DNA of 64,000 bases from a virus (taxonomy: Duplodnaviria > Caudoviricetes): the IMG/VR virus record IMGVR_UViG_3300012007_000015, positions 16,927-80,926 of that record, one strand, 5' to 3'. Made by a program: the position numbers and the translations under genes. Shown piece by piece: positions 504 through 35,990 of the stretch. The first letter of the stretch is position 1; the number at the start of each line of letters is the position of its first letter. The notes beneath the pieces were generated by a model, which ran no database searches, was not told the origin of the DNA, and saw only the letters and a list, made by a program, of their open reading frames with translations.

Positions 504-548
504 AACTCTTGTTCTTCTGATTGGAATCGGTTTCTTCTTTAATCTAAA

Positions 549-594
549 TGGGGATGCGTCGGCGGGCGTATGATAACCCAACAACGCACCCCCA
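549..594 (-). terminator. GC-rich hairpin after the tail tube gene (terminator/attenuator-like)
   Basis: tggggatgcgt...acgcaccccca inverted repeat with an inner ggg/ccc stem; the U-tract is weak. Confidence 0.4.
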
Positions 595-620
595 CGTTAC
601 GGCAGTCTTGTACGAGACTG

Positions 621-1130
621 TTAGCTTGCAGCGCGTCCTACCAGCTTGTACATGTGGTCGACAGCCTCGGCACCAGTGCCAGTGGTATGAACCAGAGCAG
701 TGATGGTCACGCTGTAGTTCAGAGCACCGTCGGCATCCTTCTTCAAGGTACCGATGGTCAGACCACGGTAGATGTACAGGGCTGCATGGCCACGACCGAA
801 GTCAAGCTGCCAAGAGTGCTCACTGGTGTAAGCGCTGGCTGCGCCCTCATAGCTCTCGGGGGTCTGGCCAGAAGCGGCGGTATAGGTGCCACCGAACAGG
901 TCAGGCAGCTCTGACAGCTCATAGTTGGCCAGCTCGAACGTCATGGTTACGGGGTTGCCATCATAGAAGATGTCAAAGGGGCTGTCATAGAACTCGGCCT
1001 CAATCTCGGTAGCCTCGGGCTCGTCCTGACCGATAGTCAGACCCTTCAAGACACCCATGAGCTTGGTGGAAGCAGCAGCACCAACGTTTCCATACATAAG
1101 GCTAATTGCCTTTACAGTTGTCTTTCCCAT
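621..1130 (-). CDS. Major tail tube protein (copy 1, 169 aa)
   Basis: Size and position after neck/terminator genes and before the chaperone; beta-rich sequence GLTIGQDEPEATEIEAEFYDSPF. Confidence 0.7.
   Translation of the reverse strand: MGKTTVKAISLMYGNVGAAASTKLMGVLKGLTIGQDEPEATEIEAEFYDSPFDIFYDGNPVTMTFELANYELSELPDLFGGTYTAASGQTPESYEGAASAYTSEHSWQLDFGRGHAALYIYRGLTIGTLKKDADGALNYSVTITALVHTTGTGAEAVDHMYKLVGRAAS
933..1034. repeat. Arm 1 of a perfect 102-bp inverted repeat (partner 11231-11332)
   Basis: Base-by-base reverse complement of 11231-11332. Confidence 0.95.
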
Positions 1131-1166
1131 AGTTTTTTCCTTTCTATTGATTAATTGATAAATGAA

Positions 1167-1604
1167 TTATTGATTGCCGTCTACTATAACGACGAACGAT
1201 TTAACGAACATGTAGTACGCATTGTTGGCGTTTTCTTCCTCGCCAAGGTCTGCAGAGATGAAGCTGTCTGGTTGAATCCAGTACGTTCCAGTATTGTCAG
1301 ACTCGCTTGCAGTCTTGATGGCCGCATTGATGTCGTTCTCGAACTTCTCGTACTTCTCAACGTCGAGACGTCCTCTCGTGATGGGAGGAACATAGCATTG
1401 AACGTATACGCGCGCCATGCCATAGGCCTCATCTTGAAACTCGCTCGCATCGACAAAGTCACCAACAACGATGACTATGAAGCCGTCCTCTGCGTCGGAC
1501 TGCAGAAGCTCCTGCGGCTCGTTCATCAGATATACGTTTTCGGTTACACTCTCAAGTATCTCCTCGACGTACTTGTATATGCCTATTCTCGATTCGTTGA
1601 CCAT
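1167..1604 (-). CDS. Putative tail terminator/completion protein
   Basis: 145 aa acidic protein immediately upstream of the tail tube; synteny only. Confidence 0.5.
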   Translation of the reverse strand: MVNESRIGIYKYVEEILESVTENVYLMNEPQELLQSDAEDGFIVIVVGDFVDASEFQDEAYGMARVYVQCYVPPITRGRLDVEKYEKFENDINAAIKTASESDNTGTYWIQPDSFISADLGEEENANNAYYMFVKSFVVIVDGNQ

Positions 1605-1607
1605 AAA

Positions 1608-2312
1608 CTATCTTTCTCTACCGATAACTGGTATTCCTTTTCTATTCTTGAACTTCCTCTTCCACTTATTGCTGGTATAGATGTACTTCGGAACATAGAC
1701 CGTCAGTCGGCTCTCTTTAGGCTTCAGCGCAACTCTTACATCGTCGTATATATGCGACATGACTTGGAACTGTCTGAATCCTGCATTGAAACTCGGAGTT
1801 ACAATGTTGCCAGCTTTGTTCCCTCTTGCGCCCATGGTGTATTTGCCTCCACCGCCTTTCATGGTGAATCCGCTCTCCCAGTAGCCCCAATAGGGTGCGA
1901 GAATAGCGAAGAACACTACCCATCCGTGGTACTCGGTCTTATAGGAAGCCAGAAACTTACTTGCCATCTCGTGACCATCAACGTTCTCCATGTCGTTTGA
2001 AAAGAACTCATGGAGCCATGACTGTGAGCTGCCACCCATACCTTTGTCATGATACACTGGTTCCCTATAATATCCGTATGCTTTGCGCTTTCCGTTGTAG
2101 AAAACACCCCAGCAGAGGGAGTTTAGAAGATTTCCAGTCCTATCCATGTGATTCCTACTGTTGTAGGTCTGAATAATATCTCCAAGAACCTTTATCTCCT
2201 TCTCGGCATATTCGATAAGACGCTGCGTCTGCAGTTCAATGGAGTTGTCTTCCACCTCCTTGCGGAAAGCGGCAGGGTTCCAACCGATGAGCATTGTCTT
2301 ACCTATAGCCAT
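1608..2312 (-). CDS. Putative neck/tail completion protein (HK97 gp10-like position)
   Basis: DRTGNLLNS motif typical of this class, plus synteny. Confidence 0.5.
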   Translation of the reverse strand: MAIGKTMLIGWNPAAFRKEVEDNSIELQTQRLIEYAEKEIKVLGDIIQTYNSRNHMDRTGNLLNSLCWGVFYNGKRKAYGYYREPVYHDKGMGGSSQSWLHEFFSNDMENVDGHEMASKFLASYKTEYHGWVVFFAILAPYWGYWESGFTMKGGGGKYTMGARGNKAGNIVTPSFNAGFRQFQVMSHIYDDVRVALKPKESRLTVYVPKYIYTSNKWKRKFKNRKGIPVIGRER

Positions 2313-2314
2313 AG

Positions 2315-2650
2315 TTACCAGCTGTTACGTGATGCGTAGATGCTTACGCCGCCGAGTTGTGACGGCTCCGCATTGTCGACCGTGAGCTTGAAGGTCTCAC
2401 CGTAGCGGGTAATGGTAATCTTGTCTCCCTTGCGGGGTACAATCCACTCGTTATCGGTGTTCTTTACGAGGGGGATGCTGATGATGTATGAGGATGTCTG
2501 CAGGGTCTTGCCCTCTTCGTCCGTCACCATGTGCTCGTCCATCACGCCCTCGTAAAGCAAGACCTCTGAGTCCTGCTTACTCCCTTTGCCTTGTATCACA
2601 CGCATTATGGTGCCTGTGTAGGGGTATTCGAGTATCTCTTCTCGCTCCAT
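2315..2650 (-). CDS. Putative head closure/stopper protein
   Basis: 111 aa beta-rich protein after the adaptor gene; synteny. Confidence 0.5.
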   Translation of the reverse strand: MEREEILEYPYTGTIMRVIQGKGSKQDSEVLLYEGVMDEHMVTDEEGKTLQTSSYIISIPLVKNTDNEWIVPRKGDKITITRYGETFKLTVDNAEPSQLGGVSIYASRNSW

Positions 2651-2654
2651 GGAA

Positions 2655-3041
2655 TTATAATCGGTCTACGTCTTCGATGGGGATGAATGTTATCTTCTTC
2701 TTGGAGTTCTCCAGAATCTTCGCACGTTCGTCGTCGTATTTGTTGTAAATATCGATAGCATACTTGATTTTATCGTTCTGGTAGTAGTCTTGTTCCTGTC
2801 CGATGGTCTTTTGGAAACCATTGTGGCTTTGTGACAAAGACGCGGTATTTGAGGGCGAAAGCAATACTGCCGTGAAGATGATGTCTGCCGTCATGAGCTC
2901 CCTGTCGCGTAACGTGACCTTAGTCTCGTCGTACACGTCGTCAGTCGGATTAACACCTCTGTCGCCAGCAATCTTGATAAAATTCTTTTCGCTAAAGCGA
3001 GAATACGTCGTTGAAGCTTCCAACCACTCAAGTACCGTCAT
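2655..3041 (-). CDS. Putative head-tail adaptor protein
   Basis: 128 aa helical protein directly after the major capsid gene. Confidence 0.5.
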   Translation of the reverse strand: MTVLEWLEASTTYSRFSEKNFIKIAGDRGVNPTDDVYDETKVTLRDRELMTADIIFTAVLLSPSNTASLSQSHNGFQKTIGQEQDYYQNDKIKYAIDIYNKYDDERAKILENSKKKITFIPIEDVDRL

Positions 3042-3091
3042 CTTTGTACAAACTTTAAAACTACTAACCTAAAACATGAAAATTACCAAGC

Positions 3092-4357
3092 CTATGCTGT
3101 TCTTGTGATGTCTACGACTACGTGGTACGGAGCCTCGTCCAGAACGGTAGCATAACGACCGATAACGTCCGTGTGGTATGCCTTCAGCATGCCGTTGGGC
3201 GTAACCTTGTTGATGACGTTCAGGAAGTTCTGCACCTTGGCCAGAGAGAACTGGATGCCGTTGTTGACCTCGCCAGACTTCATCAGCTCAACATCAGCGA
3301 CCTGTGCATGCACGAGGACACCTGCGAAGCCGAGAGGACGGAGAACAACCACGTCGGGGTTCCAGCCGCTAACAGTGTGATAGGTCGTAATACCCTGCAC
3401 AGTCTGCTGCTCGCGGACGATACGGATGGGCGAAATCTTCGAGATGGGCGAACGGCTATAGGCCACCAGCTGCTCCCAAGTGATAGTGTCTACGTTGGTG
3501 GTAGAGCTACCGTTGGTGACGACAATCACCTTGTCGGGTGCATAGAGCGAGATATAGCGGTTAACCTCCTTGACGAAGGCGGCGTTCTTCAACAGGACGT
3601 TGATAACGGTGGCCCAAGGAATGTTCCACTCGAACGGGGTGCTCTCGGGGATGTACTTCGACATCTTGAAGTCGTACTCAATCTTGCGCATCTGCTCGGG
3701 GATGTCGGCGTTGGGGTCAGTCCAGACGTCGTTGATGGCAGTCTTGAAGTTCTCCAGAGGGATATAGGCGCTCTGTGCGGTAGTTACGCCGCTAAAGCCC
3801 TTGGTGGTCTTACCGCCGCCAAGGTCGATGGTATTACCATACTGACCGCCGCGAGACAGCGTCATAGCGGCCATGTTGGATACGGTGAGGTTGTGAGACT
3901 TGACCAAGTCTGCAACGCCGCGTACGAAACCAGTCACGAGGTTCTCATCGCTGCCGAGCTCGCGAAGACGGGCCTGCAACTCCAGCTTAGACATAGAGGT
4001 CTCGAACAGTCCCTTACCATACTGGTAGATGGAACCAGTCTTCTCCTCCATACCCTCAGCGTCGAGCTGCATAGTCTCCGACAGGGGAGCCATAGAGTCA
4101 GCCATGGGAACGGTGCGGTTAATCTTCTGACGGACAGTCCACGCGGGATTCTTCTTCAGGTCAGCCACGTCTACTTGGTACTCGGCGCCCTCCACACGGA
4201 AGTGCTCCTGCCAGAAGAAAGCATTCTCCTCAATCTCGATGGTGTTGTCGATGAGGGTCTGTAAGAAGCCCTTGTTGGCACCATCCATGAAGCCTTTCTG
4301 GTAAAGCTTCTCAATCGCCTCGTCGGGCGACCATTGATATTTCAGTGCATTTGACAT
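3092..4357 (-). CDS. Major capsid protein (421 aa)
   Basis: Size, position after scaffold/decoration genes, and strongly biased codon usage (long antisense shadow ORF) as in highly expressed genes. Confidence 0.75.
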   Translation of the reverse strand: MSNALKYQWSPDEAIEKLYQKGFMDGANKGFLQTLIDNTIEIEENAFFWQEHFRVEGAEYQVDVADLKKNPAWTVRQKINRTVPMADSMAPLSETMQLDAEGMEEKTGSIYQYGKGLFETSMSKLELQARLRELGSDENLVTGFVRGVADLVKSHNLTVSNMAAMTLSRGGQYGNTIDLGGGKTTKGFSGVTTAQSAYIPLENFKTAINDVWTDPNADIPEQMRKIEYDFKMSKYIPESTPFEWNIPWATVINVLLKNAAFVKEVNRYISLYAPDKVIVVTNGSSTTNVDTITWEQLVAYSRSPISKISPIRIVREQQTVQGITTYHTVSGWNPDVVVLRPLGFAGVLVHAQVADVELMKSGEVNNGIQFSLAKVQNFLNVINKVTPNGMLKAYHTDVIGRYATVLDEAPYHVVVDITRTA

Positions 4358-4385
4358 ATCTTGTTTCCTTTCCTTACTTTAGTGA

Positions 4386-5060
4386 TTACATCCAGAAGAT
4401 GCCTTCGATGTACGAACGGTTCTTCGCGAGGACGTACTTCGGCAGGGGCTGCATACGCGGAATCCAAGCCTGCTTGTCATAGACAGCGGAGATGGAGTAG
4501 TTAGCAGTGCCGTCGATACCATATCCCTCAGTGGGCATAAGGTCACGGTCAGCCTCGATGAACGTGTTGGGGTTGGGTACGAGCACCACGGCGTCAGCGG
4601 CCTTCTCGGTGCCAGCAGCCTCTACGAGGATAGCACCAGCGGTCAGTTCGCCAAGGGTGTTGTCGAGAGTCACGGTGAATTTCTCGTTGGCCTTGTCGTA
4701 GACAACGTTGGTAATCTTTGCAGACTGACCAGTTTCCTCGACATTGTCAGGAGCGACCATAAGCAGCATGCCCACTTCGGGAGCATCGCTGTAGCCATCA
4801 CCGTTCAGAACGTACTCGGTTGCAGCTGCGGCAGCATTGGCCTTGAGCTCAAACGAGCGGAAAATCAGACATCCCTTCTCGGGGGTGTACTGTACGAGCT
4901 GTGCGGCATACAGATGGTCGAAGCCCTTCTTGGGATTCAGAATAGTACCGCCGAGGAGCACGTTCTTGCGGCTCTCACCGTTGCTGTCCTTAACCCAGAC
5001 CCACTTACCACCACGCAGTTTTCGCGAAGCCTCGTAGAAATACGCTAAGTTTGTTACCAT
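4386..5060 (-). CDS. Putative capsid decoration/cement protein
   Basis: 224 aa Ala/Val-rich protein between scaffold and capsid genes. Confidence 0.5.
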   Translation of the reverse strand: MVTNLAYFYEASRKLRGGKWVWVKDSNGESRKNVLLGGTILNPKKGFDHLYAAQLVQYTPEKGCLIFRSFELKANAAAAATEYVLNGDGYSDAPEVGMLLMVAPDNVEETGQSAKITNVVYDKANEKFTVTLDNTLGELTAGAILVEAAGTEKAADAVVLVPNPNTFIEADRDLMPTEGYGIDGTANYSISAVYDKQAWIPRMQPLPKYVLAKNRSYIEGIFWM

Positions 5061-5083
5061 AATAGTTTTACTTTAAATGAAGT

Positions 5084-5719
5084 TTAACTTGTTACTTTTA
5101 CCTTCTTCATTGACTGAAGGAACTCCTCGTCACGCTGCTTGGTTGCTTGAGGCGCAAGGGGTCTGATGTTTCCGTAGCTCGGGGCCATAATGTCTTGGTA
5201 ACGGCTAACGAGCGTATCAGCCTGCTCCTTCGTGTCGGCATCCAGCTTGACTTCGTAGTCCTGTGCAAACTTCTCGAAAGAGGTGTGCAGGTCGGGCTGG
5301 ATGTTTTTCTTGGCAAGCGCAATGATAGCCTTGAACTTTTCTTGTTTAGACTGTGCCGTCTTGAACTCCTTGAGCTCTTCCAGCTGACTCTTGATTTCGT
5401 CGGGGATTTCAACAGTCGGCGTAGCGGCAGGCTTACCAATCTTTTTGTTTAACTCTGCAATCTGAGCCTTGTAGTCGTTTTCTTTCGTCTGGAACTCAGT
5501 TGCCTTGACCGTAGCCAGTTCCGATGCGCTCGAAAAAGCCGTGTTGAGCGCGAACTTGAGCGAGTTGAGAATGGCCTCGTCGCTGACATCTCCTTCTGGG
5601 TCGGCCTTCTGGAAGTGGTCTGCGAACTTGTCCTTAAACGCATCGGTAAGAGTTGCTGTTGTGTACTGTTTCTCGGTACAATAGTCGTTTACTTTCTGTA
5701 AAACTTCTTCTTTTGTCAT
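5084..5719 (-). CDS. Putative capsid scaffolding protein
   Basis: Lys/Glu-rich coiled-coil protein, first gene of the head operon. Confidence 0.6.
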   Translation of the reverse strand: MTKEEVLQKVNDYCTEKQYTTATLTDAFKDKFADHFQKADPEGDVSDEAILNSLKFALNTAFSSASELATVKATEFQTKENDYKAQIAELNKKIGKPAATPTVEIPDEIKSQLEELKEFKTAQSKQEKFKAIIALAKKNIQPDLHTSFEKFAQDYEVKLDADTKEQADTLVSRYQDIMAPSYGNIRPLAPQATKQRDEEFLQSMKKVKVTS

Positions 5720-5758
5720 AGTTTTCTACTATAAAATAAGGTGAAAAAATGTTCGCTG

Positions 5759-5789
5759 CAAAAATACCACAAAAAATATAGAGTAAAAA
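5759..5789 (-). promoter_or_regulatory. Bacteroidota sigma-A promoter for the head operon
   Basis: TATTTTTG -7 element; -33 element imperfect (TTTT at N19). Confidence 0.55.
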
Positions 5790-5851
5790 AATATTACAGA
5801 CGGAAGTTTGGCATAATATACCAAAATATAAATAACTTCCGCTTGTATGGC

Positions 5852-5882
5852 TTTGAAACGATAAGTTTTAACTCTATCTTTG
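5852..5882 (+). promoter_or_regulatory. Bacteroidota sigma-A promoter for the terminase operon
   Basis: TTTG-N19-TATCTTTG exact consensus, 24 nt before the ATG. Confidence 0.8.
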
Positions 5883-5906
5883 CACCGAGAAATTTCTTAA
5901 CACAGC

Positions 5907-8723
5907 ATGGCAAAAAAGAGAAACGACATAGTATTGGCTCCGTTGGAGGATGGCAACCAAAAGCATGCCATTCGCTCCAACGCAGACATTGTCGCGTTCG
6001 TCGGGCAAACTGGTTCGGGGAAACAAAACCCCATTGATGAGCCTGTTTTAACGGTCAACGGATGGGTTAAAATGGGTGATTTGAAGATTGGTGATGAACT
6101 ATTCTCGCCGCTCAATACAGAACCGTCTTTTGTTACTGGTATTTATCCGCAGGGTGTCAAACCAGTATATAAAGTAACGACAAGCGACGGTCGTGTTTCT
6201 CGCTGCGGACTTGAGCATCTGTGGATGGTTCGTACAGAAAAGCAAGTGGAGAATTGGAGAAAAGGAAAAGGTTCTGCATACATTAAGACGACAAGAGAAA
6301 TATTAGACGAATATATTTCCAAGGGAAAGAATATATTCATCCCACTTGCGAGACCTTACGACGGAAAGGAGAAAGAACTTCCGATTGACCCTTATGTCCT
6401 TGGCGTTTGGCTTGGAGATGGTTGTTCACATCATGATTCTTTTGTGATTTCTGGAGACGAAATTGATGTTATAAAAAAAGTTTCAGACAAACTAAAAACA
6501 ACGTTTCGTTTTCATAGCAGCGAGAACTATAGCAACATGATACACCAGAACGAAAAAGTCTCTTCCGTCAAAAAATATATTAGAGAGTCTGGACTGGATG
6601 TGTACTCGCACGAAAGGTTTATCCCAGAAGAGTATCTGCACGCTTCTGTTGAGCAGCGTATGGAACTGTTGAAAGGATTGATGGATAGCGACGGAAATAT
6701 TGAAGAAAAGAACCGTTACTCTTTCTCTACGACAAGTCCTAAGTTGAAGCGATGTTTCATTGAACTTTGCAGAGGACTTGGTTATATCGTCGGAGAAAAT
6801 AAAGACAGCCGAACACGCTATAAGAGCGGAGAGTGTTGGAAGATAACAATCCAGACGAACGACATAATCTTCAGCAGCAAGAAGCACCTCGACAAATACC
6901 GCGCGAACTTGGAGAAATACAAGAACAAGAATCGTGAGTACAAGCATGACCATGTGCGCATTATAAATATAGAATATGTGGGAGACATGGAGTGTCAATG
7001 TATAATGGTTTCCAACAGAGACCACTTATACTGCACACATGACTATATTGTGACACATAACACAATTGCTTTATATTACGCCCCGATTGAGTACCTTGCC
7101 ATGAATGACAACGCCAAGGCTGTGTGCTTCATGCGTAACGTCGCGGACTTCTGGGCCACTGGTAAGGTCGCGGACACTGTTAAGCAGATGTATCCGCTCG
7201 TTGACAGAGGCGCAGGAAAGAAGCAGCCGCATGACCCGATAGGAGAAATCCGAAGAGGACAGGAGGACATGGGCGTCAAGTTCTACAACGGCTCCGAGAT
7301 TAAGTTCCAGCAGCTTGACAACGAGAGTCCTATCGTGATTGATAAGATTACGAAGGGTCTGCAGGCGAAGATACTTATTTTCGATGAGTGCAACAAGTTC
7401 CTCTGGAGAACCATATCGGCATTCTTCCCGCGCATGCGTTCCGATTCTTCTGGTAAGGCACAGGTGTTCCTTGCACAGAACCCAGAGCGCGAGTGCTTCA
7501 TGCGACAGATGTGTGGAAAGGGAGAGCACGGCGGAGGATGGATTAATGACGACGGCTCTATAGACAAGGATATGGACGGCGTAGTCATGTTCGTGTTCTT
7601 TCCAGACGGTGACTACGAAAGAGCAGTCTGGGGCCGAACTAAGAAAGAAGTATACGAGAAAGGCAAGGAGTGTATAGACAAGCTGCTCGCAATAGACCAA
7701 GATATGTCCTACGAGGACTTTATCCTGTCGTTCGCCTTCTTTACGTTCGATGTGAGAGACAACAAGAAGATGCTCTCAAAGAACAAGAAGTATCGCGGTC
7801 TTGCAGCTAACTCGACGACAGCAAAGTCTTCCTATGAGAACAACTGGAACTACTCTCTCGAAGACGAAAAGGGAGATGCCGAAGACCTCGCGAACGTACA
7901 GCTAAGTAATACGGACGTTGAGCGCATGTTCAGACATATAGAGATTCCCTACGAGAGCCAGTGCATCAAGAAGTTCATGACTGTAGACTATGCTACAACG
8001 GGATTCGATAACTTTGTAATGAAGTATTGGGAGCTGTGGGAGCACTACGGCTTTATCTGCAAGGATATTCAGTTTTCCATGAAGAACTCCAATAAGGAGG
8101 CCGTGATTATGATGATTGACTTCCGCGACCGTCATGGACTTCAGGAAAAGGAGATGATTATCGACGTGCAGGGCTCCACGTTCCTGCGCGACTGCTTCCC
8201 AAGAGCCATCAACTTTGCAGGTGCATCACAGCCTACGGAGCGCTCGAAGGCCCAGTACAAGACTCGCAAAGACGAGGCTGCACACCTCTGCATGGAGATG
8301 ATACAGGCTGGACTCATACACTACGACCCGAAGCTCGCAGATGCAAGGTACAATCACCAGAATATGAAGAGAGAGGGTGCGACCACCGTACTCCGCCACA
8401 TGAAGTTCGAGAGCGTCATCTTCCAGTTTGGAAAGACACCGAACGGGCGCATCACCATGCTCGACAAGGAGAAACAGAAAACCTTCCTCAAAGGTATGTC
8501 TCCAGACCTGTTCGACAATGTCATCATGCTTTGCGGAGGTCTGTATCACACGTGCTATAATATGCTGCGTGACGATGCAGGCATAATGCGCAAGAAGATG
8601 CAGGCGGAAGACATGCTCAGCCTCCTCAACGTAAACGGACGCGAAGAGGTTGACACGAGAATACACCGTGTTAGGAAGATTAGGAATGCAAGCGAAATAT
8701 TAAACGTTTTAAGTACGATATAA
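5907..8723 (+). CDS. terL: Terminase large subunit containing an intein
   Basis: Walker A GQTGSGK/T split by the intein, Walker B ILIFDE, RNase H-like nuclease motifs VDYATTGFD and SPDLFD. Confidence 0.9.
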   Translation: MAKKRNDIVLAPLEDGNQKHAIRSNADIVAFVGQTGSGKQNPIDEPVLTVNGWVKMGDLKIGDELFSPLNTEPSFVTGIYPQGVKPVYKVTTSDGRVSRCGLEHLWMVRTEKQVENWRKGKGSAYIKTTREILDEYISKGKNIFIPLARPYDGKEKELPIDPYVLGVWLGDGCSHHDSFVISGDEIDVIKKVSDKLKTTFRFHSSENYSNMIHQNEKVSSVKKYIRESGLDVYSHERFIPEEYLHASVEQRMELLKGLMDSDGNIEEKNRYSFSTTSPKLKRCFIELCRGLGYIVGENKDSRTRYKSGECWKITIQTNDIIFSSKKHLDKYRANLEKYKNKNREYKHDHVRIINIEYVGDMECQCIMVSNRDHLYCTHDYIVTHNTIALYYAPIEYLAMNDNAKAVCFMRNVADFWATGKVADTVKQMYPLVDRGAGKKQPHDPIGEIRRGQEDMGVKFYNGSEIKFQQLDNESPIVIDKITKGLQAKILIFDECNKFLWRTISAFFPRMRSDSSGKAQVFLAQNPERECFMRQMCGKGEHGGGWINDDGSIDKDMDGVVMFVFFPDGDYERAVWGRTKKEVYEKGKECIDKLLAIDQDMSYEDFILSFAFFTFDVRDNKKMLSKNKKYRGLAANSTTAKSSYENNWNYSLEDEKGDAEDLANVQLSNTDVERMFRHIEIPYESQCIKKFMTVDYATTGFDNFVMKYWELWEHYGFICKDIQFSMKNSNKEAVIMMIDFRDRHGLQEKEMIIDVQGSTFLRDCFPRAINFAGASQPTERSKAQYKTRKDEAAHLCMEMIQAGLIHYDPKLADARYNHQNMKREGATTVLRHMKFESVIFQFGKTPNGRITMLDKEKQKTFLKGMSPDLFDNVIMLCGGLYHTCYNMLRDDAGIMRKKMQAEDMLSLLNVNGREEVDTRIHRVRKIRNASEILNVLSTI
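6024..7061 (+). mobile_element. 346-aa class 3-type intein with LAGLIDADG homing endonuclease, in the TerL P-loop
   Basis: Block A QNPIDEPVLTVNGW, block B CGLEHLW, LAGLIDADG-like LGVWLGDG and LLKGLMDSDG, block F/G CQCIMV...HLY...IVTHN, and Thr+1. Confidence 0.9.
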
Positions 8724-8727
8724 AAAG

Positions 8728-10245
8728 ATGATTAGACTGAAAGATATTAACTGGTATCTCAGCGAACCCACGAGGCTGTTACAGATGAAGCCGTTCGTCC
8801 GTGGTGGCAAGATGAACTCCCATGGATGGGAGATGGAACCGCTTCCGAACAACACAACGATTGAGACTGGCTTCTGCAACCTCGACCTCGTCCCAATCTC
8901 GCAGGACACCTATATCACGGAATACAAGCCGTCGCTACATACCATACTGATGAATAAGTCGATTCCGCACATCAAGGTAACAATCGACGGAATGCCGCTT
9001 AACATTGGCATGATGGACATGACGCAGACGGGCTCGTTCCAGAAGCTCATTCATAGTGCGCACGTACGTTCGCTTACATCTAACCCGCTGGAGTTCAACC
9101 TTGGAAAGACGGATGCAGACGGAGGCGGCATGAAGCCGTTCGAGTATGTCAAGGATGAGTGGAACTCGCGCAACATGGACTGGTGGCTTTCGAGGGCCAT
9201 CAACGCACAGAAGATGGTCGGTAACTGCGGTCTGCTGTTCTCATTCGACAAGGAGACAAACAAGAGCATGGTTACTTGCTTGTCGTACGAGGACGGATAC
9301 CAGATTATCCCGAACTACGACGAGTACGGCTCCGAGATTGCACGCTCTCTCGCATACCAGATTGACAACAAGATAGTCATCGATACGTATGACAACACAA
9401 AGCACTACCGCTGTATGCAGAAAGACAATGGCTGGGAGACACAGTATGAGTTACACGGATACTCAAGGTGCCCGCTGCTGCACCAGAGGGGAACCGTCGC
9501 TTGGGAGTACGCGGAGAGTTCCTGCGAGATGTGGGAGCTGATGACAAACATCAATAATATCGCACTCAAGCGTTTCGGTACGTTTGCCCTTGTATTCACA
9601 GGTGATATGGATAAGGATTCCTTCAAGAGGGATTCCAGTACGCTCATCATCAACCTTTCAAGCGACAACACCAACGGAAAGCAGAGTGCAGACGTTCTGA
9701 AGTTCCCAGAGCCAACAACAATGAACGAGTACCTAAAGACTCTGGAGGAGAAAATATCCCTGTTCTCGTCTACTTCCTTCATTACGCCGAAGGATATTAC
9801 AGCAACTAATAGCGGCGGCAACGGCATAGCCCTCGCCATGTCTAACGACTATGCCCTCGCTACGCAGTCCGCTCTTGACTGGCGTAAGTTCGTCAACGAC
9901 ATGGTGTACCTGCACCAAGAGGGCCTCGACCTTGAGACGAACGGCGCAGAAAAGTATGCACAGTTACGTGTAGGCGCAAAGATTGTTCCTTGGTCTCTTG
10001 AGACGAACAATACGAAGATTACGAACCTCGCCATGGAAGCCAAGTGGCTGTCTATGCAGACTATCATCGAGAAGTCTCCAGATGCAGCTCCCGACGAGGC
10101 AGACCGCATCATCAAGGAGCGAGGCTCACTCATTCCGCAGGGCGCAAGCGACATCGACGAAGGCACCGACAAGGCACAGCGCATCAGTATAAACCGCAAC
10201 AACACAATACGTGACAATGTTGCAAAAACAGGAGAGGAGGAGTAG
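8728..10245 (+). CDS. Portal protein (SPP1-like, 505 aa)
   Basis: Follows TerL; size and C-terminal LSMQTIIEKSP...EADRI pattern typical of portals. Confidence 0.8.
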   Translation: MIRLKDINWYLSEPTRLLQMKPFVRGGKMNSHGWEMEPLPNNTTIETGFCNLDLVPISQDTYITEYKPSLHTILMNKSIPHIKVTIDGMPLNIGMMDMTQTGSFQKLIHSAHVRSLTSNPLEFNLGKTDADGGGMKPFEYVKDEWNSRNMDWWLSRAINAQKMVGNCGLLFSFDKETNKSMVTCLSYEDGYQIIPNYDEYGSEIARSLAYQIDNKIVIDTYDNTKHYRCMQKDNGWETQYELHGYSRCPLLHQRGTVAWEYAESSCEMWELMTNINNIALKRFGTFALVFTGDMDKDSFKRDSSTLIINLSSDNTNGKQSADVLKFPEPTTMNEYLKTLEEKISLFSSTSFITPKDITATNSGGNGIALAMSNDYALATQSALDWRKFVNDMVYLHQEGLDLETNGAEKYAQLRVGAKIVPWSLETNNTKITNLAMEAKWLSMQTIIEKSPDAAPDEADRIIKERGSLIPQGASDIDEGTDKAQRISINRNNTIRDNVAKTGEEE

Positions 10246-10248
10246 ACT

Positions 10249-10626
10249 ATGGGCTGGATGGAATTTGTACTTGGCATGGCAACACTTGTACTCGGTACTG
10301 GCTGGCTGTTTACATACCACTCTCACAAGAAGAAAGAAGAGGGCGAGGCAACACAATCTGAGGCAAACGGTTGGCTCAAGCAGCAGGAGGTGTACCAACA
10401 CACCATTGAAGACCTTGAGAAAGCCTGTGACTTCATACGTAACGACCGTAACCAGCTACGTGAGGAGAACTCGCGACTTATCTCTGAGAACAACGAGCTA
10501 AGACGCACAGTGGTCGAGTTGCAAAACACTGTATTCGACCTCAAGAAAGAGGTTTCACGCCTCGGAAGACGTGTCGACGCCATGAGTGAGAAAAAGAAGA
10601 AAAACGACAAAAATACGGAAGGATAA
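10249..10626 (+). CDS. Holin-like membrane protein with C-terminal coiled coil
   Basis: One N-terminal hydrophobic helix, then a heptad coiled coil; stop overlaps the lysozyme start. Confidence 0.5.
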   Translation: MGWMEFVLGMATLVLGTGWLFTYHSHKKKEEGEATQSEANGWLKQQEVYQHTIEDLEKACDFIRNDRNQLREENSRLISENNELRRTVVELQNTVFDLKKEVSRLGRRVDAMSEKKKKNDKNTEG

Positions 10627-11105
10627 TGACGCTTATGAAGACATCCCAGAAAGGCATTGACCTTATCAAGAAGTTCGAGGGCTGCAAGTTGTACGCCTAT
10701 CGTGATTCTGTTGGCATCCCGACCGTTGGCTATGGCCACACAAGCGGCGTCAAGATGGGCATGGCTATCACGCAGGCACAGGCAGACAAGTTCCTCGCCG
10801 AAGACCTTGCTGCAGTTGAGTCCGTCCTTAACAAGATGAACATTAACTTCAAGCAGAATCAGTTCGATGCTCTGGCCGCTTGGATATTCAACCTTGGCGA
10901 GGGTAAGTTCAAGGGTTCCACGTTGTACAAGAAAATCGTTGCACGCGCCACTGACCTTGAAATCACTGACCAGATAGTCCGATGGATTAACGCTGGCGGC
11001 AAGCCGTCTCTTGGATTAAAGCGCCGCCGCGTCGCAGAGGCCAACATGTTCTTGGGACGAGACGAATATCGTATTGATGCACAAGGAAATATAAACAAGA
11101 AATAA
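10626..11105 (+). CDS. Endolysin, GH24 phage lysozyme
   Basis: Catalytic E-x8-D-x5-T pattern in FEGCKLYAYRDSVGIPTVGYGHT. Confidence 0.92.
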   Translation: MTLMKTSQKGIDLIKKFEGCKLYAYRDSVGIPTVGYGHTSGVKMGMAITQAQADKFLAEDLAAVESVLNKMNINFKQNQFDALAAWIFNLGEGKFKGSTLYKKIVARATDLEITDQIVRWINAGGKPSLGLKRRRVAEANMFLGRDEYRIDAQGNINKK

Positions 11106-11131
11106 TTTATTTACTTTAAGATTGTAAGATT

Positions 11132-11914
11132 ATGGGAAAAACTACAGTAAAACCAATCAGCCTTGGATACAGGGATGTTGGTAGTTCTGGTAACTACAGG
11201 ATGCTGATGGGTGTCCTTAAAGGCCTTACCATCGGTCAGGACGAGCCCGAGGCTACCGAGATTGAGGCCGAGTTCTATGACAGCCCCTTTGACATCTTCT
11301 ATGATGGCAACCCCGTAACCATGACGTTCGAGTTGGCCAACTACACTTTGGATGAACTGCCTGATTTGTTCGGCGGAGCGTACGAGCAGGTTGACGACGA
11401 GTACGATGGAGAGGCGAATGTCTACACTTCCGAGCACGAGTGGAAGCTTGATTTCTCACGTGGCTACGCATCTCTTGTCCTCTATCGTGGCCTTACGATA
11501 GGAACCATCAAAAAGGACGCTGACGGTGCCCTTAATTTCTCTGTGACAATTACTGCTCTTATATACGAGGACGGCGACGAGAGTCACATGTACAAGATTG
11601 TTGGTGCTCCTCTTCCTCCTCCCGAGCCAGAGATTGTCAGCGTTAACAACGTTGAGAACGGCGGCAACTCGTTCGCTGTAATATCCTCTAACTGGTATCC
11701 GATTGTCGTCAACGTTCCAGTATCCGTTGTCGGTGCGGCAAGCGTGAAGATTAACAACGTTTCCGTAGATGCCATCGGCGAGACCTCTGGTACAAGCGGA
11801 GACGTGACGGACAAGACGACGTTCTATTTCCGTCCTACGGCGTACACAACCGTCACATCAGTCAAAGTGACAACCGTTGGCGGAGACGTTCTCACGGCAA
11901 CTTTCGGAAGCTAA
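11132..11914 (+). CDS. Tail tube protein paralog (copy 2) with Pro-rich linker and ~95-aa beta-rich C-terminal extension
   Basis: N-terminal ~160 aa clearly homologous to 621-1130, followed by PLPPPEPE and an extra domain. Confidence 0.75.
   Translation: MGKTTVKPISLGYRDVGSSGNYRMLMGVLKGLTIGQDEPEATEIEAEFYDSPFDIFYDGNPVTMTFELANYTLDELPDLFGGAYEQVDDEYDGEANVYTSEHEWKLDFSRGYASLVLYRGLTIGTIKKDADGALNFSVTITALIYEDGDESHMYKIVGAPLPPPEPEIVSVNNVENGGNSFAVISSNWYPIVVNVPVSVVGAASVKINNVSVDAIGETSGTSGDVTDKTTFYFRPTAYTTVTSVKVTTVGGDVLTATFGS
11231..11332. repeat. Arm 2 of the perfect 102-bp inverted repeat (partner 933-1034)
   Basis: atcggtcaggacgag...atgacgttcgag is identical to the reverse complement of 933-1034. Confidence 0.95.
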
Positions 11915-11940
11915 ATATTCATCATTAAACACATATTATT

Positions 11941-13113
11941 ATGAAGTACGTAAAGATTTATAACGAGAAGATGCAGCTCACTGGAGTTGCCGACATCGAC
12001 AAGAACTACGACAAGACTGGCTATGTCAAGTGTTTCGACAAGGACATGAAGTTCATTGGCGTAATGGACGTCGACACCATCCCCGAGTCTGGCGATGATA
12101 TTCCCTACGTTGAGATGTTCGACGAGAACATGAACTTCGCTGGGGCTGTCACGGCAGACAATATCCGTCATTCCGATGGTTATCTTATCAAGTTGCAGAA
12201 AGACCCGTCTACTACTGGTAGTGTAAGTGGCGGCGGTCGCTTTGTCGAAGGTACGGAAGTCACCGTTGTAGCTACTCCTGATTCTGAAGGCGATTATACC
12301 GCATTCGACGGCTGGTACGAGGGCGAGAATAAAGTTTCAAGGAACGCTTCGTACACATTCACAGTAAGCGGAGCGCGTACGTTGGTTGCGAAGTTCCTTA
12401 ATCCTAATACAGTCATAACCTATACTGCCACAGAAAAGATAAGCGTAGGAAATAATTTTGGCAGTGCGCATATAACATCCCACACGTTTGAGGATGGTCT
12501 TGGTATGATAAAATTTGACAACAGTGTAACAAGCATCGGAGACAACGCGTTCAAAGGTTGCTCTGGCTTGACGAGCATTGAGATTCCGAGCGGCGTAACA
12601 AGCATCGGAAGCAACGTGTTCAACGGTTGCTCTGGCTTGGCGAGCAATGAGATTCAGGGCGGCGTAACAAGCATCGGAAGCAACGTGTTCAACGGTTGTA
12701 CTGGTCTGGCGAACATCTCTGTTGATAGCAATAACACTAAATACGACTCTCGTGATAACTGTAACGCTATCATAGAGACGAGTACAAATACATTGAAGTT
12801 CGGTTGTAAGAGTACTGTTATTCCGAGCAGCGTAACAAGCATCGGAGGCAGTGCGTTCTACGGTTGTTCTGGCTTGACGAGCATTGAGATTCCGAGCAGC
12901 GTAACAAGCATCGGAGGCAGTGCGTTCTACGGTTGTTCTGGCCTCGCAAGTGTTGTTTGTAATCCAACAACGCCTCCGACTCTTAGCTCTTCTGCGTTTA
13001 ACAACAATGCCGCTGGCAGAAAGATTTATGTACCTGCTGCAAGTGTAGACACCTACAAGGCAGCGTCTGTGTGGAGCACTTACGCAGATGACATTGAGGC
13101 AATACCGCAGTAA
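11941..13113 (+). CDS. Putative receptor-binding/adhesion protein: 3 short N-terminal repeats, InlB-B-repeat-like domain, BspA-type LRRs
   Basis: YVK.F...M.F.G repeats; GSVSGGG...FDGWY...YTFTV pattern; TSIGxxAFxGCSGLTSIEIP repeats at 69-bp period. Confidence 0.8.
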   Translation: MKYVKIYNEKMQLTGVADIDKNYDKTGYVKCFDKDMKFIGVMDVDTIPESGDDIPYVEMFDENMNFAGAVTADNIRHSDGYLIKLQKDPSTTGSVSGGGRFVEGTEVTVVATPDSEGDYTAFDGWYEGENKVSRNASYTFTVSGARTLVAKFLNPNTVITYTATEKISVGNNFGSAHITSHTFEDGLGMIKFDNSVTSIGDNAFKGCSGLTSIEIPSGVTSIGSNVFNGCSGLASNEIQGGVTSIGSNVFNGCTGLANISVDSNNTKYDSRDNCNAIIETSTNTLKFGCKSTVIPSSVTSIGGSAFYGCSGLTSIEIPSSVTSIGGSAFYGCSGLASVVCNPTTPPTLSSSAFNNNAAGRKIYVPAASVDTYKAASVWSTYADDIEAIPQ

Positions 13114-13115
13114 AG

Positions 13116-32331: not shown

Positions 32332-35121
32332 TTACATCTCTGCCTGCATAGCCTCGACAATCTGCTGTGCGCGCTCCTCGTCAGAGAGAGCCTTGAACAC
32401 AACCATCTCGGTCATTGTGTCCGTATACTCCTTCTCGCGTGCGAGTACGGCCTCTACGAACTGCTTGTTGGTCATGTCCTCTTTCTTCTCGTCGAGGATG
32501 ACGTGAAGACGTGCGATATTGTGCATGTAAGTCTCGTATAAAAGGAAAGCGTCCGTCTCGTTCTCGCCGAGCCCATACAGGGGAGCGAAGATATTGTTGA
32601 GCCACTTGTCGACAATCCAAGCGATATTATACTCGGTGTCGTCCTGCTTCTCCTTGAGCACGTCCATCATCTTCTTGTATGAGCGCGTCGGATTGCCCTT
32701 GGCATCCTTGACCACACAGTCGTTTTCAAGGGCCATCTCAATCATGCGCTTGATATAGAGGTACGGTCTGGATATACCAGAGGCCACTATACGATGGAAT
32801 ACGTGTGTATGAAACATTGTTCCAACGGTGGCAAAGTCATTGTTAACGTAAAGGCGGAGCCACTTGTCCCCGAAGAACACCTCCGACCCGTCACTCGTTC
32901 TCTCAACAACGATTAATGCGTTTCTGAGTCTGCGCTCAAGCTGAGCAGCCGTTGGTTTCTTCTCCTGTCTGATTGGTTTTGCTGTCATAATGATTATTGT
33001 GTTTCTTCTATATACTTGTCTATTTCTTTGATTCTTGCCTCCATCTGCCGTATGGCGTTTTCGATGGTAGCAGTAGGATAGCTTTCAAGAACGTCCTTCA
33101 AAACGACGACTTGTACGTAAAGCCTGTTCCTTGTAACTGCTATATTCTTCTTATCCATTAGGCGTCTGGATTCTGCTGTGACTTCCAGATGGCCAGCAGC
33201 CGCAGCTTGATAGTCTCCTCGTTGGTAGGGAGCTTACCCTTAATCTTGTTTGTTTTGTTGTAGCTCTTGAGCCAAGCCACAGCCTCTTCAAGGTTTGTTA
33301 TCTCTGGGAAGCACCACTCGTTTTCAGGAACGTCCTTTGCGCCAGCGTCTGCTCCGTCAGCCTCGATTTCTGCTGCTTCGTCAACAAGGGTTTGCGCGGC
33401 CTTGCGTGATTCCTCGTCGAGGTCGGCGTTTTCAATCTCCTCGGTATCCATGTATTCAGGAACGACGAAAATTTCTTCGATTTTCGAGAACGGCTCAAGC
33501 GAAAATGTCTTCTTGACCCTCGGTGCCTTATCTGTCGCTGCATCGTATGTCGCTACAGCGTACGCCCGATAACCACCTCTCATCTCAAGAACAGCTACGC
33601 CATTCTTAAAAGACTTCTTTGGGTCTTCGTGCTTTTTTAACGGTATCGACGGAATATTCAGATACCGCAAAACTTCCTTTTCAAATTCTATTGTCATAAT
33701 ATATGGTTTTAATGATTTCTATAAAAAGCAACTACTTATTTTCCCAAACTTTCGTTGCAAAACCTAATAACATAAAAAAATAAGAACACTACTCTCGGTG
33801 CAAAGTTACGAATTACTTTGTATATGCCAAAATAATTATATGTTTTTAACATAAAAATTATTTGATTCCAAGGCTGCTCTTAACGGCGGCAATTTTCGTC
33901 AGCCCTTCTTTCGTGGGCTTTCCATCCTTGCCGAAAGGAACGAGAATCTGCAGGTTGTGATGTATCTGCACAAACTTCCACCCGCTTTTGATTCGCTCTC
34001 GCTCCAGTTTCTTTACTTTTTCGAGGATGGTCTTTTCCTTGGACTTGTCGTCCACCCTCTTTTCCATTATCCAATTTGTCGACGTTGCCATAATAACTAA
34101 TTACAAACCTTTACCGTTTTTCCTACTTGTTTGTTAGAAATGAAAGACTTAAACGGTGTGACTACCGTTTCCTTCTTCTCTACGTCAACAACCTGTGACG
34201 CCGTATAGACATTCTCTGTGTCTTCATCGCTGAGTCTCTTTGCGACCATAATTGCGCTTGCTTTATCCATGTTTGTCTCAACAGTATATTGCTTGTGCTC
34301 TTTCTGGTCGTATTTATTAACACACCAGCTCTCCCCAACGACAGAGGATTCCCTCTCGATTTCGCATTTGAACAGCCGAAGGGTTCTATCCTCGTCGCCA
34401 AAGTCTATTCTTATTACTGTATCAGTATCGTCCTCTATACGCTGCTGCCCTCCGAGTTGCCAAGCCTCTGGTAGCTGTGCCCATCGCATGATGTTATGGT
34501 ACAGCGTCTCAGACTCTTCGTTCATCTCGTTTGTCCCGTAGCTTTCTGCGTAGAAATCAGACCAAAACTTAATGAATTGCTGATATGCCTTGTCGAGGTC
34601 GTTACATGCCTTTGCGATGTCATACCTGCGGCCACCAAAACTATCGAGAAGGGCTACAGCGTTGCCGAAGACCCTATATGCCGCCATGATGGATGCGTGA
34701 TACGTCGTCAGAAGTTTGGATATTCGGTCGTACACGCCGAGCTCGCGAGCCTTCTCAAGACTAAGGCCCCTGATGCCAGCGGCCTTAATCCTTTTATGCA
34801 CATCTTCTGACACGTCTACGTTAAACGGCAGCTCTATCGTTTCATATTTGTCCATTTACTTCGATATAAGTTAACCTCAGTGCGCCTATGTTTTCAAACA
34901 TAATGCTAAGCGTTTAAATTCTTGAACAGTCCGCCATTCTTCACGAATGCCTTGATGGGCACCTTGCAATACGTTACACCTCCGTAAGAGACGTCCACAA
35001 TCGGACAGTCAACGAACAGGTTCCTATACTTTACGTCAACAAGGACGACATACTTTGGCATGCGTAGCTCCCTTTCGAGCCCGCTATGCGAATGTAGTTG
35101 TACAACACCTACAGACATCAT
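32332..35121 (-). CDS. Hypothetical proteins (32332-32988, 32994-33158, 33158-33697, 33858-34091, 34097-34855, 34906-35121)
   Basis: Tightly packed co-oriented ORFs with no recognisable motifs. Confidence 0.65.
33801..33831 (-). promoter_or_regulatory. Bacteroidota sigma-A promoter
   Basis: TTTG-N19-TAACTTTG. Confidence 0.8.
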
Positions 35122-35990
35122 TTACCTCCTCTCTTTTTGCCGTTGTTATCCTCTTCTGCGTCATCGAAGTCTGCGAACTTTTCGGCAACCTCCTGAGCCT
35201 TCTGTGCGTCTGCAATCTGTTGCTGCATGTCTCCTTCGTTGTCTATATACTCGTACTTGTCCTTCTCGAATTGGATGCTCTGGTCAGCTTTGATAGCGTC
35301 CTGCATCTCTACGGAAAGAGGGGCGTTGCGAGACAGGTTGAGTTTAATAACCGTCTTCTTGGCCATATCATCGAAATCGGTAGTCCACTTACTCTCCTGT
35401 CTTACGTTATCGTATTTCGAGTGGTATGTCTGGGAATAACGGAGAGCATGCGCCTCCATCTCCTCGATAGACATGTAAAACGTGGACTCGGCACCGTTAA
35501 GAAGGCGGAAATAGCTTGCATAGCCTATGGTCTTTGCGTTGGCGCGTTCTGTGTCGTTGTCGATGAACTTGAATACGCACTCACCTGTAAGACGGTTCCT
35601 GCTTATCAGCTCGCCCTCCTTGATTTCTGTCGCATTAGGGATGATTGCAAACTGTCCGCTTCTGAGTGCGAGCTGCTTAACCCCTTTATAACCCAACTGG
35701 AACTGGGCCACAACGGTTCCCTGCTTATTGTTCTTGTACGGGATACAGAACGCCATACCGAGAGACTTGTCGAGCGGTAGGTTAAGTGCTGTTGCTTTAA
35801 GCGCTGCGAACACAATTGTTGCAGGGACACATTCCTGAAGCTTTACGTCTCCAGCGACAAGGGCTGTAACATTGTTTACGAAGGAACCCTTACGCTCCTT
35901 GAGAATGTCCTCAAGATACTTCTGCCACACAGGGCTTGTGATGGTCTGGTTAAACAGCTGCAGACCTGTCATTTTCTTTTCTTCTGCCAT
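35118..35990 (-). CDS. recT: RecT/Bet-family single-strand annealing recombinase
   Basis: LNLPLDKSLGMAFCIPY...QFQLGYKG...WTTDFDDMAKKTVIK. Confidence 0.9.
   Translation of the reverse strand: MAEEKKMTGLQLFNQTITSPVWQKYLEDILKERKGSFVNNVTALVAGDVKLQECVPATIVFAALKATALNLPLDKSLGMAFCIPYKNNKQGTVVAQFQLGYKGVKQLALRSGQFAIIPNATEIKEGELISRNRLTGECVFKFIDNDTERANAKTIGYASYFRLLNGAESTFYMSIEEMEAHALRYSQTYHSKYDNVRQESKWTTDFDDMAKKTVIKLNLSRNAPLSVEMQDAIKADQSIQFEKDKYEYIDNEGDMQQQIADAQKAQEVAEKFADFDDAEEDNNGKKRGGK

What the first reader, a model, noticed from the sequence alone, without database searches (positions are those of the whole stretch)
933..11332. Perfect 102-bp inverted repeat shared by two tail-tube paralogs brackets the head/terminase/portal/lysis block
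Seen: 933-1034 is the exact reverse complement of 11231-11332 (34 codons with no silent change), while the immediately upstream codons of the two paralogs differ at most third positions (AAG ACA ACT GTA AAG vs AAA ACT ACA GTA AAA). This points to very recent gene conversion or repeated crossover. Inference: recombination between the arms would flip the 10.2 kb segment, producing two genome isomers. It would swap the tube N-termini and swap which late promoter (head vs terminase) drives the plain tube plus left tail genes versus the decorated tube plus BspA, spanin and tail genes. That could switch tail composition. RecT/exonuclease and a serine recombinase are encoded in the same genome.
Basis: partly seen in the sequence, partly recalled or inferred. 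Interest (0 to 1): 0.7.

Follow-up and report, generated by a model that had tools for sequence, protein, structure and literature searches.

The report
Gene-conversion patch between tail-tube paralogs
Two diverged, oppositely oriented tail-tube genes of an uncultured gut or rumen phage share a letter-perfect 102-base stretch because one gene recently overwrote that piece of the other, a tidy example of a known process; nothing shows that the 10-kb block between them flips.

Summary
Window 933-1034 is the reverse complement of 11231-11332. The repeat is in frame in two paralogous genes: tubeA (621-1130, minus strand, 169 aa) and tubeB (11132-11914, plus strand, 260 aa). Both have a siphophage tail-tube fold (Z 8-11). 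Outside the patch the paralogs are 63% identical in DNA and their synonymous sites are saturated, so the chance of 34 unchanged codons is about 1e-12.

The key result comes from an independent assembly from another sequencing run (Logan SRR27373465). It carries the same endolysin-tubeB-BspA arrangement. Its tubeB differs from this one at 24 of 102 bases inside the patch but at only 18 of 681 outside it. So this phage's tubeB patch was recently overwritten. The patch groups with tubeA orthologues, so tubeA was the donor. Both copies are now identical, so the transfer was non-reciprocal.

The inversion-switch idea has no support. The repeat is absent from the sister lineage. Relatives mostly carry one tube gene. 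Both assemblies of this phage and all 15 relatives mapped gene by gene show one orientation. No invertase lies nearby. Occasional flipping by the phage RecT or host RecA remains physically possible but is untested.

This scan has reported the same kind of converted repeat on other DNA.

The parts
933..1034 (-). Left arm of the perfect repeat: codons 33-66 of tubeA. Inferred donor copy of the conversion tract.
   Evidence: Exact 102-nt match. The patch is closest to tubeA-clade orthologues, 88% to L011_3993 and L050.
11231..11332 (+). Right arm of the perfect repeat: codons 34-67 of tubeB. Recipient copy, overwritten. By three-way comparison the tract is at least 11233-11329 and at most about 11231-11343.
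   Evidence: The Logan sister allele L129 differs at 24 of 102 positions here and at 18 of 681 elsewhere in the gene, Fisher p = 2e-12.
621..1130 (-). tubeA, the plain tail-tube protein (169 aa), in the canonical position after the head and connector genes and before the chaperone-like and 2338-aa tape-measure-like genes.
   Evidence: phrog_6767. 71% aa identity to tubeB. Orthologous and syntenic in the 15 relatives mapped gene by gene, and present in all 23 long related records.
11132..11914 (+). tubeB, a second tail-tube paralogue (260 aa) with a proline-rich linker and a beta-rich C-terminal extension of about 100 aa. It is inserted after the endolysin gene.
   Evidence: Tail-tube fold, Z 8-11 over residues 1-160. 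The extension has no homologue outside its own cluster among 5.8 billion proteins. The arrangement is confirmed in Logan contig L129.
1035..11230 (.). The 10.2-kb segment between the arms, which would invert if the arms crossed over. It holds connector genes, a likely major capsid gene (3092-4357, by position only), scaffold-like genes, divergent promoters, terminase with intein, portal, a holin-like gene and endolysin.
   Evidence: ORFs. Terminase and endolysin PHROG hits. SPP1_portal and Phage_lysozyme Pfam hits on the identical ENA genes. Same orientation relative to the flanks in the 15 relatives mapped.
5720..5906 (.). Divergent intergenic region between the head operon (minus) and the terminase operon (plus). 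It contains Bacteroidota-type TAnnTTTG motifs on both strands: TATCTTTG near 5875 on the plus strand, and TATTTTTG on the minus strand within about 5755-5775.
   Evidence: Read directly from the sequence. The consensus is recalled from memory and was not tested. The sigma-70 scan was uninformative.
11941..13113 (+). BspA-type leucine-rich-repeat protein (390 aa), inserted together with tubeB and absent from relatives at this position.
   Evidence: Pfam LRR_5 1e-38 and Flg_new_2. No tblastn match in G002, G003, G008 or G012.
35118..35990 (-). RecT-family single-strand annealing protein, a candidate catalyst of the conversion.
   Evidence: Pfam PF03837, 7.8e-34.
51281..52102 (-). Small serine recombinase (273 aa). 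Probably unrelated to the repeat.
   Evidence: PF00239, 91.7 bits. Conserved at 40-54% in relatives that have a single tube gene.

Best explanation
The 102-bp perfect inverted repeat is a very recent, short (about 100-110 nt), non-reciprocal gene-conversion tract. A stretch of the resident plain tail-tube gene (tubeA) was copied over the matching stretch of the second, C-terminally extended tail-tube gene (tubeB). The two genes lie 10.2 kb apart in opposite orientation. That much is shown. What follows is inferred. The event took place between homeologous sequences, about 76% identical with a longest shared run of 15 nt, during phage replication. It went through a mismatch-tolerant annealing or template-switch route, most plausibly the phage's own RecT-type annealing protein, or otherwise host RecA. 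The tract sits where the paralogues were already most alike: it encodes the highly conserved acidic loop of the tube protein. The conversion changed only two residues of tubeB. The new identity is a by-product, not a maintained switch, although it now gives a substrate on which a crossover would invert the head/terminase block.
For: (1) Exact 102-nt identity lies within paralogues that are 63% identical elsewhere and have saturated synonymous sites; P is about 1e-12. (2) The sister allele shows the overwriting. Logan contig SRR27373465_19419 (L129) has lysozyme, then a 260-aa tubeB, then BspA. It is 95.9% identical over 1840 nt. It has 24 mismatches within 11233-11329 and 18 in the other 681 nt of the gene. 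(3) Polarity: the G000 patch is nearest to tubeA-clade genes (88%), while the Logan tubeB patch is nearest to the tubeB-like tandem copy L011_4512 (85%). GC3 of the patch is 0.76, against 0.61 for the rest of tubeA, 0.53 for the rest of tubeB and 0.59 for the Logan patch. (4) There is no family-wide constraint on the DNA sequence: 84 orthologues are only 67-88% identical to the patch. Tandem tube paralogues in L011, L012 and L017 show no identity patch. (5) Both copies are identical, so the transfer was non-reciprocal. (6) RecT is encoded in the genome. (7) The same patch appears in an independently built assembly, which differs from the window only inside the BspA repeats.
Against: No unconverted tubeA allele was available, so the donor is inferred from affinity over only 102 nt. 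The pre-conversion homology is poor (longest exact run 15 nt), which is awkward for classical RecA- or RecT-dependent exchange and leaves the initiating step unexplained. Position 11333 of tubeB matches neither tubeA nor the Logan allele, so the right edge of the tract is not clean. The two long assemblies probably come from one sample, so population heterogeneity is unknown.
Confidence: 0.85

Rival explanations
1. Flip-flop by general homologous recombination. The 102-bp arms cross over at an appreciable rate, so the phage population holds two genome isomers with chimeric tube genes. This changes which tube variant follows the head operon.
For: 102 bp of perfect homology lies in frame in both genes. 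RecT is present. Both products would stay intact, from the geometry. Precedent exists: a roughly 30-kb invertible region flanked by 400-700-nt inverted repeats, with no known dedicated recombinase, coexists as two isomers in Anabaena cyanophages (bioRxiv 10.64898/2026.02.14.705889).
Against: Only the ancestral orientation is seen: in both assemblies of this phage and in the 15 relatives mapped gene by gene. The repeat is new and absent from the sister lineage, so it cannot be a conserved trait. The arms are 4-7 times shorter than in the cyanophage case. No flipped joint was found in two collections, though this is weak evidence because records near the window's own genome may be left out.
Confidence: 0.1
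2. Programmed site-specific inversion, a Gin/Cin/Hin-like or shufflon-like switch that uses the encoded serine recombinase.
For: A small serine recombinase is encoded at window 51281-52102. The inverted repeat lies inside virion genes, as in the Mu G and P1 C segments (from memory).
Against: The recombinase is 40 kb away and is conserved in relatives that have a single tube gene and no repeat. The repeat is plain coding sequence that varies freely at synonymous sites in orthologues and is not conserved in the sister lineage. No opposite orientation was seen in any relative.
Confidence: 0.02
3. Assembly or consensus artefact. The true tubeB patch differs, and the identity was created by the assembler or by mis-mapped polishing reads.
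For: The genome is a metagenome assembly. Related contigs often break inside this gene (L126, L127, L050, L063), so the region is a graph tangle in samples that hold several relatives.
Against: Two differently resolved assemblies give the same patch. An unconverted patch would be only about 76% identical with runs of 15 nt or less, so it would share no assembly k-mers with tubeA and would not attract its reads. The endolysin-tubeB-BspA joint is confirmed in an independent run.
Confidence: 0.03

Closest known systems
Concerted evolution of inverted paralogues by gene conversion, e.g. tufA/tufB of Salmonella and E. coli
   Same: Two oppositely oriented paralogues on one replicon exchange sequence non-reciprocally. 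The same homology can also give inversions as the crossover outcome.
   Different: In tuf the whole genes are kept nearly identical over long periods. Here a single tract of about 100 nt sits in otherwise saturated paralogues, is private to one lineage, and arose between sequences only about 76% alike.
IR-flanked genome isomers in Anabaena cyanophages of the A-1(L)/N1 group (bioRxiv 10.64898/2026.02.14.705889)
   Same: A phage with a large block flanked by inverted repeats and no dedicated invertase next to it. This is the model for what a flip would look like here.
   Different: There the repeats are 400-700 nt, are conserved in position across nine phages, differ in orientation between phages, and both isomers were shown by PCR and read mapping. 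Here the repeat is 102 nt, unique to one lineage, and only one orientation is seen.
Site-specific invertible tail-fibre segments: Mu G (Gin), P1 C (Cin), e14 P (Pin) (from memory; Mu also cited)
   Same: An inverted repeat inside virion genes, such that inversion would recombine gene halves in frame.
   Different: Those systems use short crossover sites, an adjacent invertase and an enhancer, and they swap variable C-termini onto a constant N-terminus. Here there is no adjacent invertase, the repeat is ordinary coding homology, and a flip would swap the short N-termini and the upstream operons.
SPP1 gp17.1 / gp17.1* (two major tail proteins made by frameshifting) and lambda gpV with its C-terminal Ig-like domain (PMC6316719, PMC9022992; PDB hits)
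   Same: A plain tube subunit alongside a version that carries an extra C-terminal beta-rich domain. The tube fold is shared (Z 9.1 to SPP1 6yeg, 8.4 to lambda 7t4f).
   Different: Here the extended version is a separate, diverged gene in another operon rather than a frameshift product. Whether it is built into the tail is unknown.

Membership tests
Interparalogue gene-conversion tract | A sharply bounded block of identity inside paralogues that are otherwise diverged, synonymous sites included | tested here: met
   102 of 102 identical against 63% outside. The five codons before the block all differ synonymously. P is about 1e-12.
Interparalogue gene-conversion tract | A close relative keeps the unconverted state of one copy | tested here: met
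   Logan L129 tubeB has 24 of 102 mismatches inside the block and 18 of 681 outside.
Interparalogue gene-conversion tract | Non-reciprocal: both copies carry the donor sequence, and the donor can be identified by affinity | tested here: met
   The copies are identical. The patch is nearest to the tubeA clade and the Logan patch is nearest to the tubeB clade. The affinity rests on only 102 nt.
Site-specific DNA inversion switch (Gin/Hin/Cin, shufflon) | A dedicated recombinase gene in or beside the invertible segment | tested here: not met
   The only Resolvase-domain gene is at window 51281-52102, about 40 kb away, and is conserved in relatives that have one tube gene and no repeat.
Site-specific DNA inversion switch (Gin/Hin/Cin, shufflon) | Crossover sites conserved among related elements | tested here: not met
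   The sister lineage has 76% identity at the site. 22 of 23 long related records have a single tube gene.
Site-specific DNA inversion switch (Gin/Hin/Cin, shufflon) | Both orientations observed | tested here: inconclusive
   Only one orientation appears in two assemblies and in the 15 relatives mapped. Junction scans were empty. No reads were available.
Homologous-recombination genome isomers flanked by inverted repeats | Inverted repeats kept at the same positions in related genomes, with orientation varying among them | tested here: not met
   No relative has inverted tube paralogues. The segment has the same orientation in every relative mapped.
Homologous-recombination genome isomers flanked by inverted repeats | Both isomers coexist in one population | not testable with these tools
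   This needs the raw reads or PCR.
Siphophage tail tube protein | Tail-tube (Hcp/gpV-like) fold | tested here: met
   AlphaFold model with pLDDT 67 (80-90 over most of the core). Foldseek top hits are Bxb1 and lambda gpV. VIA-align gives Z 10.7 to Bxb1, 10.5 to JBD30, 9.1 to SPP1 and 8.4 to lambda over residues 1-160.
Siphophage tail tube protein | Gene position between the head-tail connectors and the chaperone and tape-measure genes | tested here: met
   True for tubeA: 145-aa gene, then tubeA, then 205 aa, 64 aa and 2338 aa, syntenic in relatives. Not true for tubeB, which follows the endolysin.

The most novel reading that the evidence does not exclude
The freshly created 102-bp identity makes the 10.2-kb head/terminase block flip at a measurable rate through the phage RecT or host RecA. 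One clonal phage would then produce two genome isomers. In the flipped isomer the extended tube gene body follows the strongly expressed head operon and the plain one follows the lysis genes, which would change the ratio of decorated to plain subunits in the tail. A related reading is that conversion of the inter-subunit loop was selected so that the two paralogues can co-assemble.
Probability: 0.1. Interest if true: 0.6.

Novelty: new member of a known kind. Interest (0 to 1): 0.3.

Why it matters
This is a clean natural record of one short gene-conversion event inside a phage genome. Donor, recipient, tract limits (about 100 nt) and the unconverted sister allele are all visible, and the event took place between sequences only about 76% alike. 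That bears on how phage recombination systems handle diverged paralogues and how new inverted repeats, and with them potential rearrangement sites, arise in virion modules. It also flags a lineage that carries a second, C-terminally extended tail-tube gene in a different operon, an alternative to the frameshift route of SPP1. It does not reveal a new switch.

Tried and rejected
1. A megablast of window 1-14000 against 50,697 phage records found nothing.

2. One degenerate pattern covering all four possible joints (two parental, two flipped) found nothing in viral contigs or metagenome contigs. Records near the window's own genome may be left out, so this says little.

4. Nucleotide-level selection on a shared DNA or RNA element was rejected. 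Orthologues vary freely at synonymous sites in the patch, and tandem paralogues in three relatives show no patch.

5. 'Remnant of a recent duplication' was rejected, because the flanks are saturated.

6. I tested for an older crossover by segment-wise nearest neighbours. The N-terminal 32 codons of tubeB look slightly tubeA-like, but 96 nt is too little to say.

7. The sigma-70 promoter and terminator scan was no better than shuffles.

8. Pfam gave no family for either tube gene.

9. A GTDB genome scan for a host gave only two MAG contigs, one binned to Prevotellaceae and one to Roseburia. The host remains inferred.
Full report
OBSERVATION

The window is bases 16927-80926 of an 80,926-bp IMG/VR virus record. 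The longest exact match between the two genes is 102 nt: 933-1034 (reverse complement) equals 11231-11332. It lies inside 193-nt arms that are 85% complementary.

The left arm is in a 169-aa gene on the minus strand (621-1130, 'tubeA'). The right arm is in a 260-aa gene on the plus strand (11132-11914, 'tubeB'). The proteins are 71% identical over 166 residues. The patch starts at codon position 1 in both genes (codons 33-66 and 34-67), so a crossover would keep both reading frames.

Outside the patch the DNA identity is 63%. Among codons that keep the same amino acid, 37 are identical and 46 differ synonymously. That gives about 1e-12 for 34 unchanged codons in a row.

WHAT THE GENES ARE

Neither gene has a Pfam family. 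Both hit phrog_6767, of unknown function.

An AlphaFold model of tubeB, built on a 29-sequence alignment, has mean pLDDT 67, with 80-90 over most of the core. Foldseek puts the tail tubes of mycobacteriophage Bxb1 and lambda gpV on top. VIA-align gives Z 10.7 (Bxb1), 10.5 (JBD30), 9.1 (SPP1 gp17.1) and 8.4 (lambda gpV) over residues 1-160. So 'tail tube' is supported.

The patch (residues 34-67, rich in Asp and Glu) overlaps the stretch of lowest confidence, residues 38-58. I read this as the long loop that becomes ordered only in the assembled tube. That reading is inference.

tubeB adds a proline-rich linker and a beta-rich extension of about 100 aa. The extension has no homologue outside its own cluster among 5.8 billion proteins.

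CONTEXT AND RELATIVES

The gene order, from left to right along the plus strand (the genes left of the bar read leftward), is:
- 2338-aa tape-measure-like gene, then 64 aa, then 205 aa, then tubeA, then connector genes, then the likely capsid gene and scaffold-like genes
- the divergent promoter region
- terminase (with an intein), then portal, holin-like gene, endolysin, tubeB, BspA-type LRR protein, a 152-aa gene and an 1851-aa gene.

More than 100 related contigs were found in IMG/VR. Four whole relatives and eleven further loci were mapped gene by gene, and all share this divergent layout in the same orientation.

22 of 23 long related records have only one tube gene, the tubeA orthologue. 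Several relatives carry a tandem second copy directly after the first: L011, L012, L017 and G012. In L012 and L017 that copy is 262 aa long. tubeB is nearest to these tandem second copies.

A tube gene after the endolysin, followed by BspA, was seen only in three places: this genome, a 99.98%-identical ENA scaffold of 81,605 bp, and a 2,217-bp Logan contig from a different run, SRR27373465.

THE DECISIVE COMPARISON

The Logan contig (L129) is 95.9% identical to window 10623-12462 without gaps. Within tubeB it differs at 24 of the 102 patch positions, all between 11233 and 11329, and at only 18 of the other 681 positions. Fisher's test gives p = 2e-12. So the sister allele keeps a different sequence exactly where this genome's tubeB equals tubeA.

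Two lines point to tubeA as the donor:
- The G000 patch is most like tubeA-clade genes (88% to L011_3993 and L050). The Logan patch is most like the tubeB-like tandem copy L011_4512 (85%).
- Third-position GC of the patch is 0.76. This is nearer to the rest of tubeA (0.61) than to the rest of tubeB (0.53) or the Logan patch (0.59).

The direction is therefore tubeA to tubeB.

By three-way comparison, the left edge of the tract lies between 11230 and 11233, and the right edge between 11329 and 11344. Position 11333 matches neither parent.

Because both copies now carry the same sequence, the transfer was non-reciprocal. Two reciprocal crossovers would have swapped the patches, not equalised them.

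OTHER EXPLANATIONS EXCLUDED

A shared DNA or RNA element is unlikely. 84 orthologues are only 67-88% identical to the patch, so synonymous change is tolerated there. Tandem paralogues in three relatives show no patch.

An assembly artefact is unlikely for three reasons:
- The ENA assembly resolves the BspA repeats differently (four differences at 12640-12658) yet has the identical patch in both copies.
- An unconverted patch would share runs of at most 15 nt with tubeA, too short to confuse an assembler.
- The endolysin-tubeB-BspA joint is confirmed independently.

MECHANISM

What is shown: a non-reciprocal copy of about 100 nt from tubeA to tubeB, with no changes since.

What is inferred: it arose during replication by a mismatch-tolerant annealing or template-switch route. 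The genome encodes a RecT-family annealing protein (35118-35990). No YqaJ-type exonuclease was found. How exchange began on such poor homology is not explained. The tract lies where the protein, and so the DNA, was already most conserved.

THE INVERSION HYPOTHESIS

A crossover in the arms would invert 1035-11230, keep both genes in frame, swap their first 32-33 codons, and exchange which operon reads into which gene body. The intergenic gaps before the two tube genes are only 36 and 26 nt, so both genes are probably co-transcribed with their upstream genes.

Five points count against a switch:
- The repeat did not exist in the sister lineage and has no counterpart in relatives.
- All 15 mapped relatives and both assemblies of this phage show the same orientation.
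- The only serine recombinase is 40 kb away, at 51281-52102. It is conserved in relatives that have no repeat.
- No flipped joint turned up in two collections, though this is weak evidence.
- The phage case of recombinase-independent isomers turned up by one literature search has repeats of 400-700 nt that are conserved across phages, with both orientations observed.

I put about 10% on measurable flip-flop and about 2% on a programmed switch.

COMPARISON WITH KNOWN SYSTEMS

This behaves like ordinary concerted evolution between inverted paralogues, with tufA/tufB as the textbook case (from memory). It is not a member of the Gin/Cin/Hin or shufflon class: two defining features were tested and not met. 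It is not shown to belong to the class of genome isomers flanked by inverted repeats.

This scan has reported the same kind of converted repeat in other phage and cellular DNA (e1-3648841, e1-1940957, e1-3373535).

VERDICT

The switch part is unsupported. It is a new example of a known kind and of modest interest.

Noticed in passing
window 5907-8723 (insert at about 6024-7061): The large terminase is 938 aa. Ten of the eleven relatives mapped align to residues 1-39 (or a few more) and 386-938 as adjacent segments. So this phage, and relative L105, carry an in-frame insert of about 346 aa right after the Walker A region, with weak LAGLIDADG and homing-endonuclease hits. It is probably an intein.
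   Followed up: partly
L129:1-381, against window upstream of 10623: The Logan sister contig has an unrelated ORF that, by eye (no family search run), looks like an HNH/NUMOD homing endonuclease, where this phage has its holin-like gene. A 42-nt block inside the endolysin (window 10716-10757) carries 25 mismatches in an otherwise 96-99% identical gene, which is a second small mosaic patch.
   Followed up: no
L011:3993-5048, L012:1702-2995, L017:4738-6025, G012 contig ends: Several related phages carry two tube genes in tandem. In L012 and L017 the second is 262 aa with a C-terminal extension that is not homologous to the tubeB extension. Extended second tube subunits seem to have arisen more than once in this phage group.
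   Followed up: partly
L126, L127, L050, L063 (contig ends): Four IMG/VR contigs end inside the tube gene, after residues 77-138, which is downstream of the conserved loop region. This suggests assembly-graph breaks where co-occurring relatives share sequence.
   Followed up: no
window 11941-13113: The BspA-type LRR_5 protein has internal direct repeats: 138-nt copies offset by 69 nt, at 12504-12947. The only four differences between the two assemblies of this phage lie there (12640-12658). It is absent from relatives at this position, so it looks like a moron-like insert that came with tubeB.
   Followed up: partly
window 5720-5906: The divergent intergenic region has TAnnTTTG motifs on both strands and a TTTG about 20 nt upstream on the plus strand. 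This fits Bacteroidota-type promoters and, together with a Prevotellaceae-binned MAG contig (L133), suggests a Prevotella-like host.
   Followed up: no
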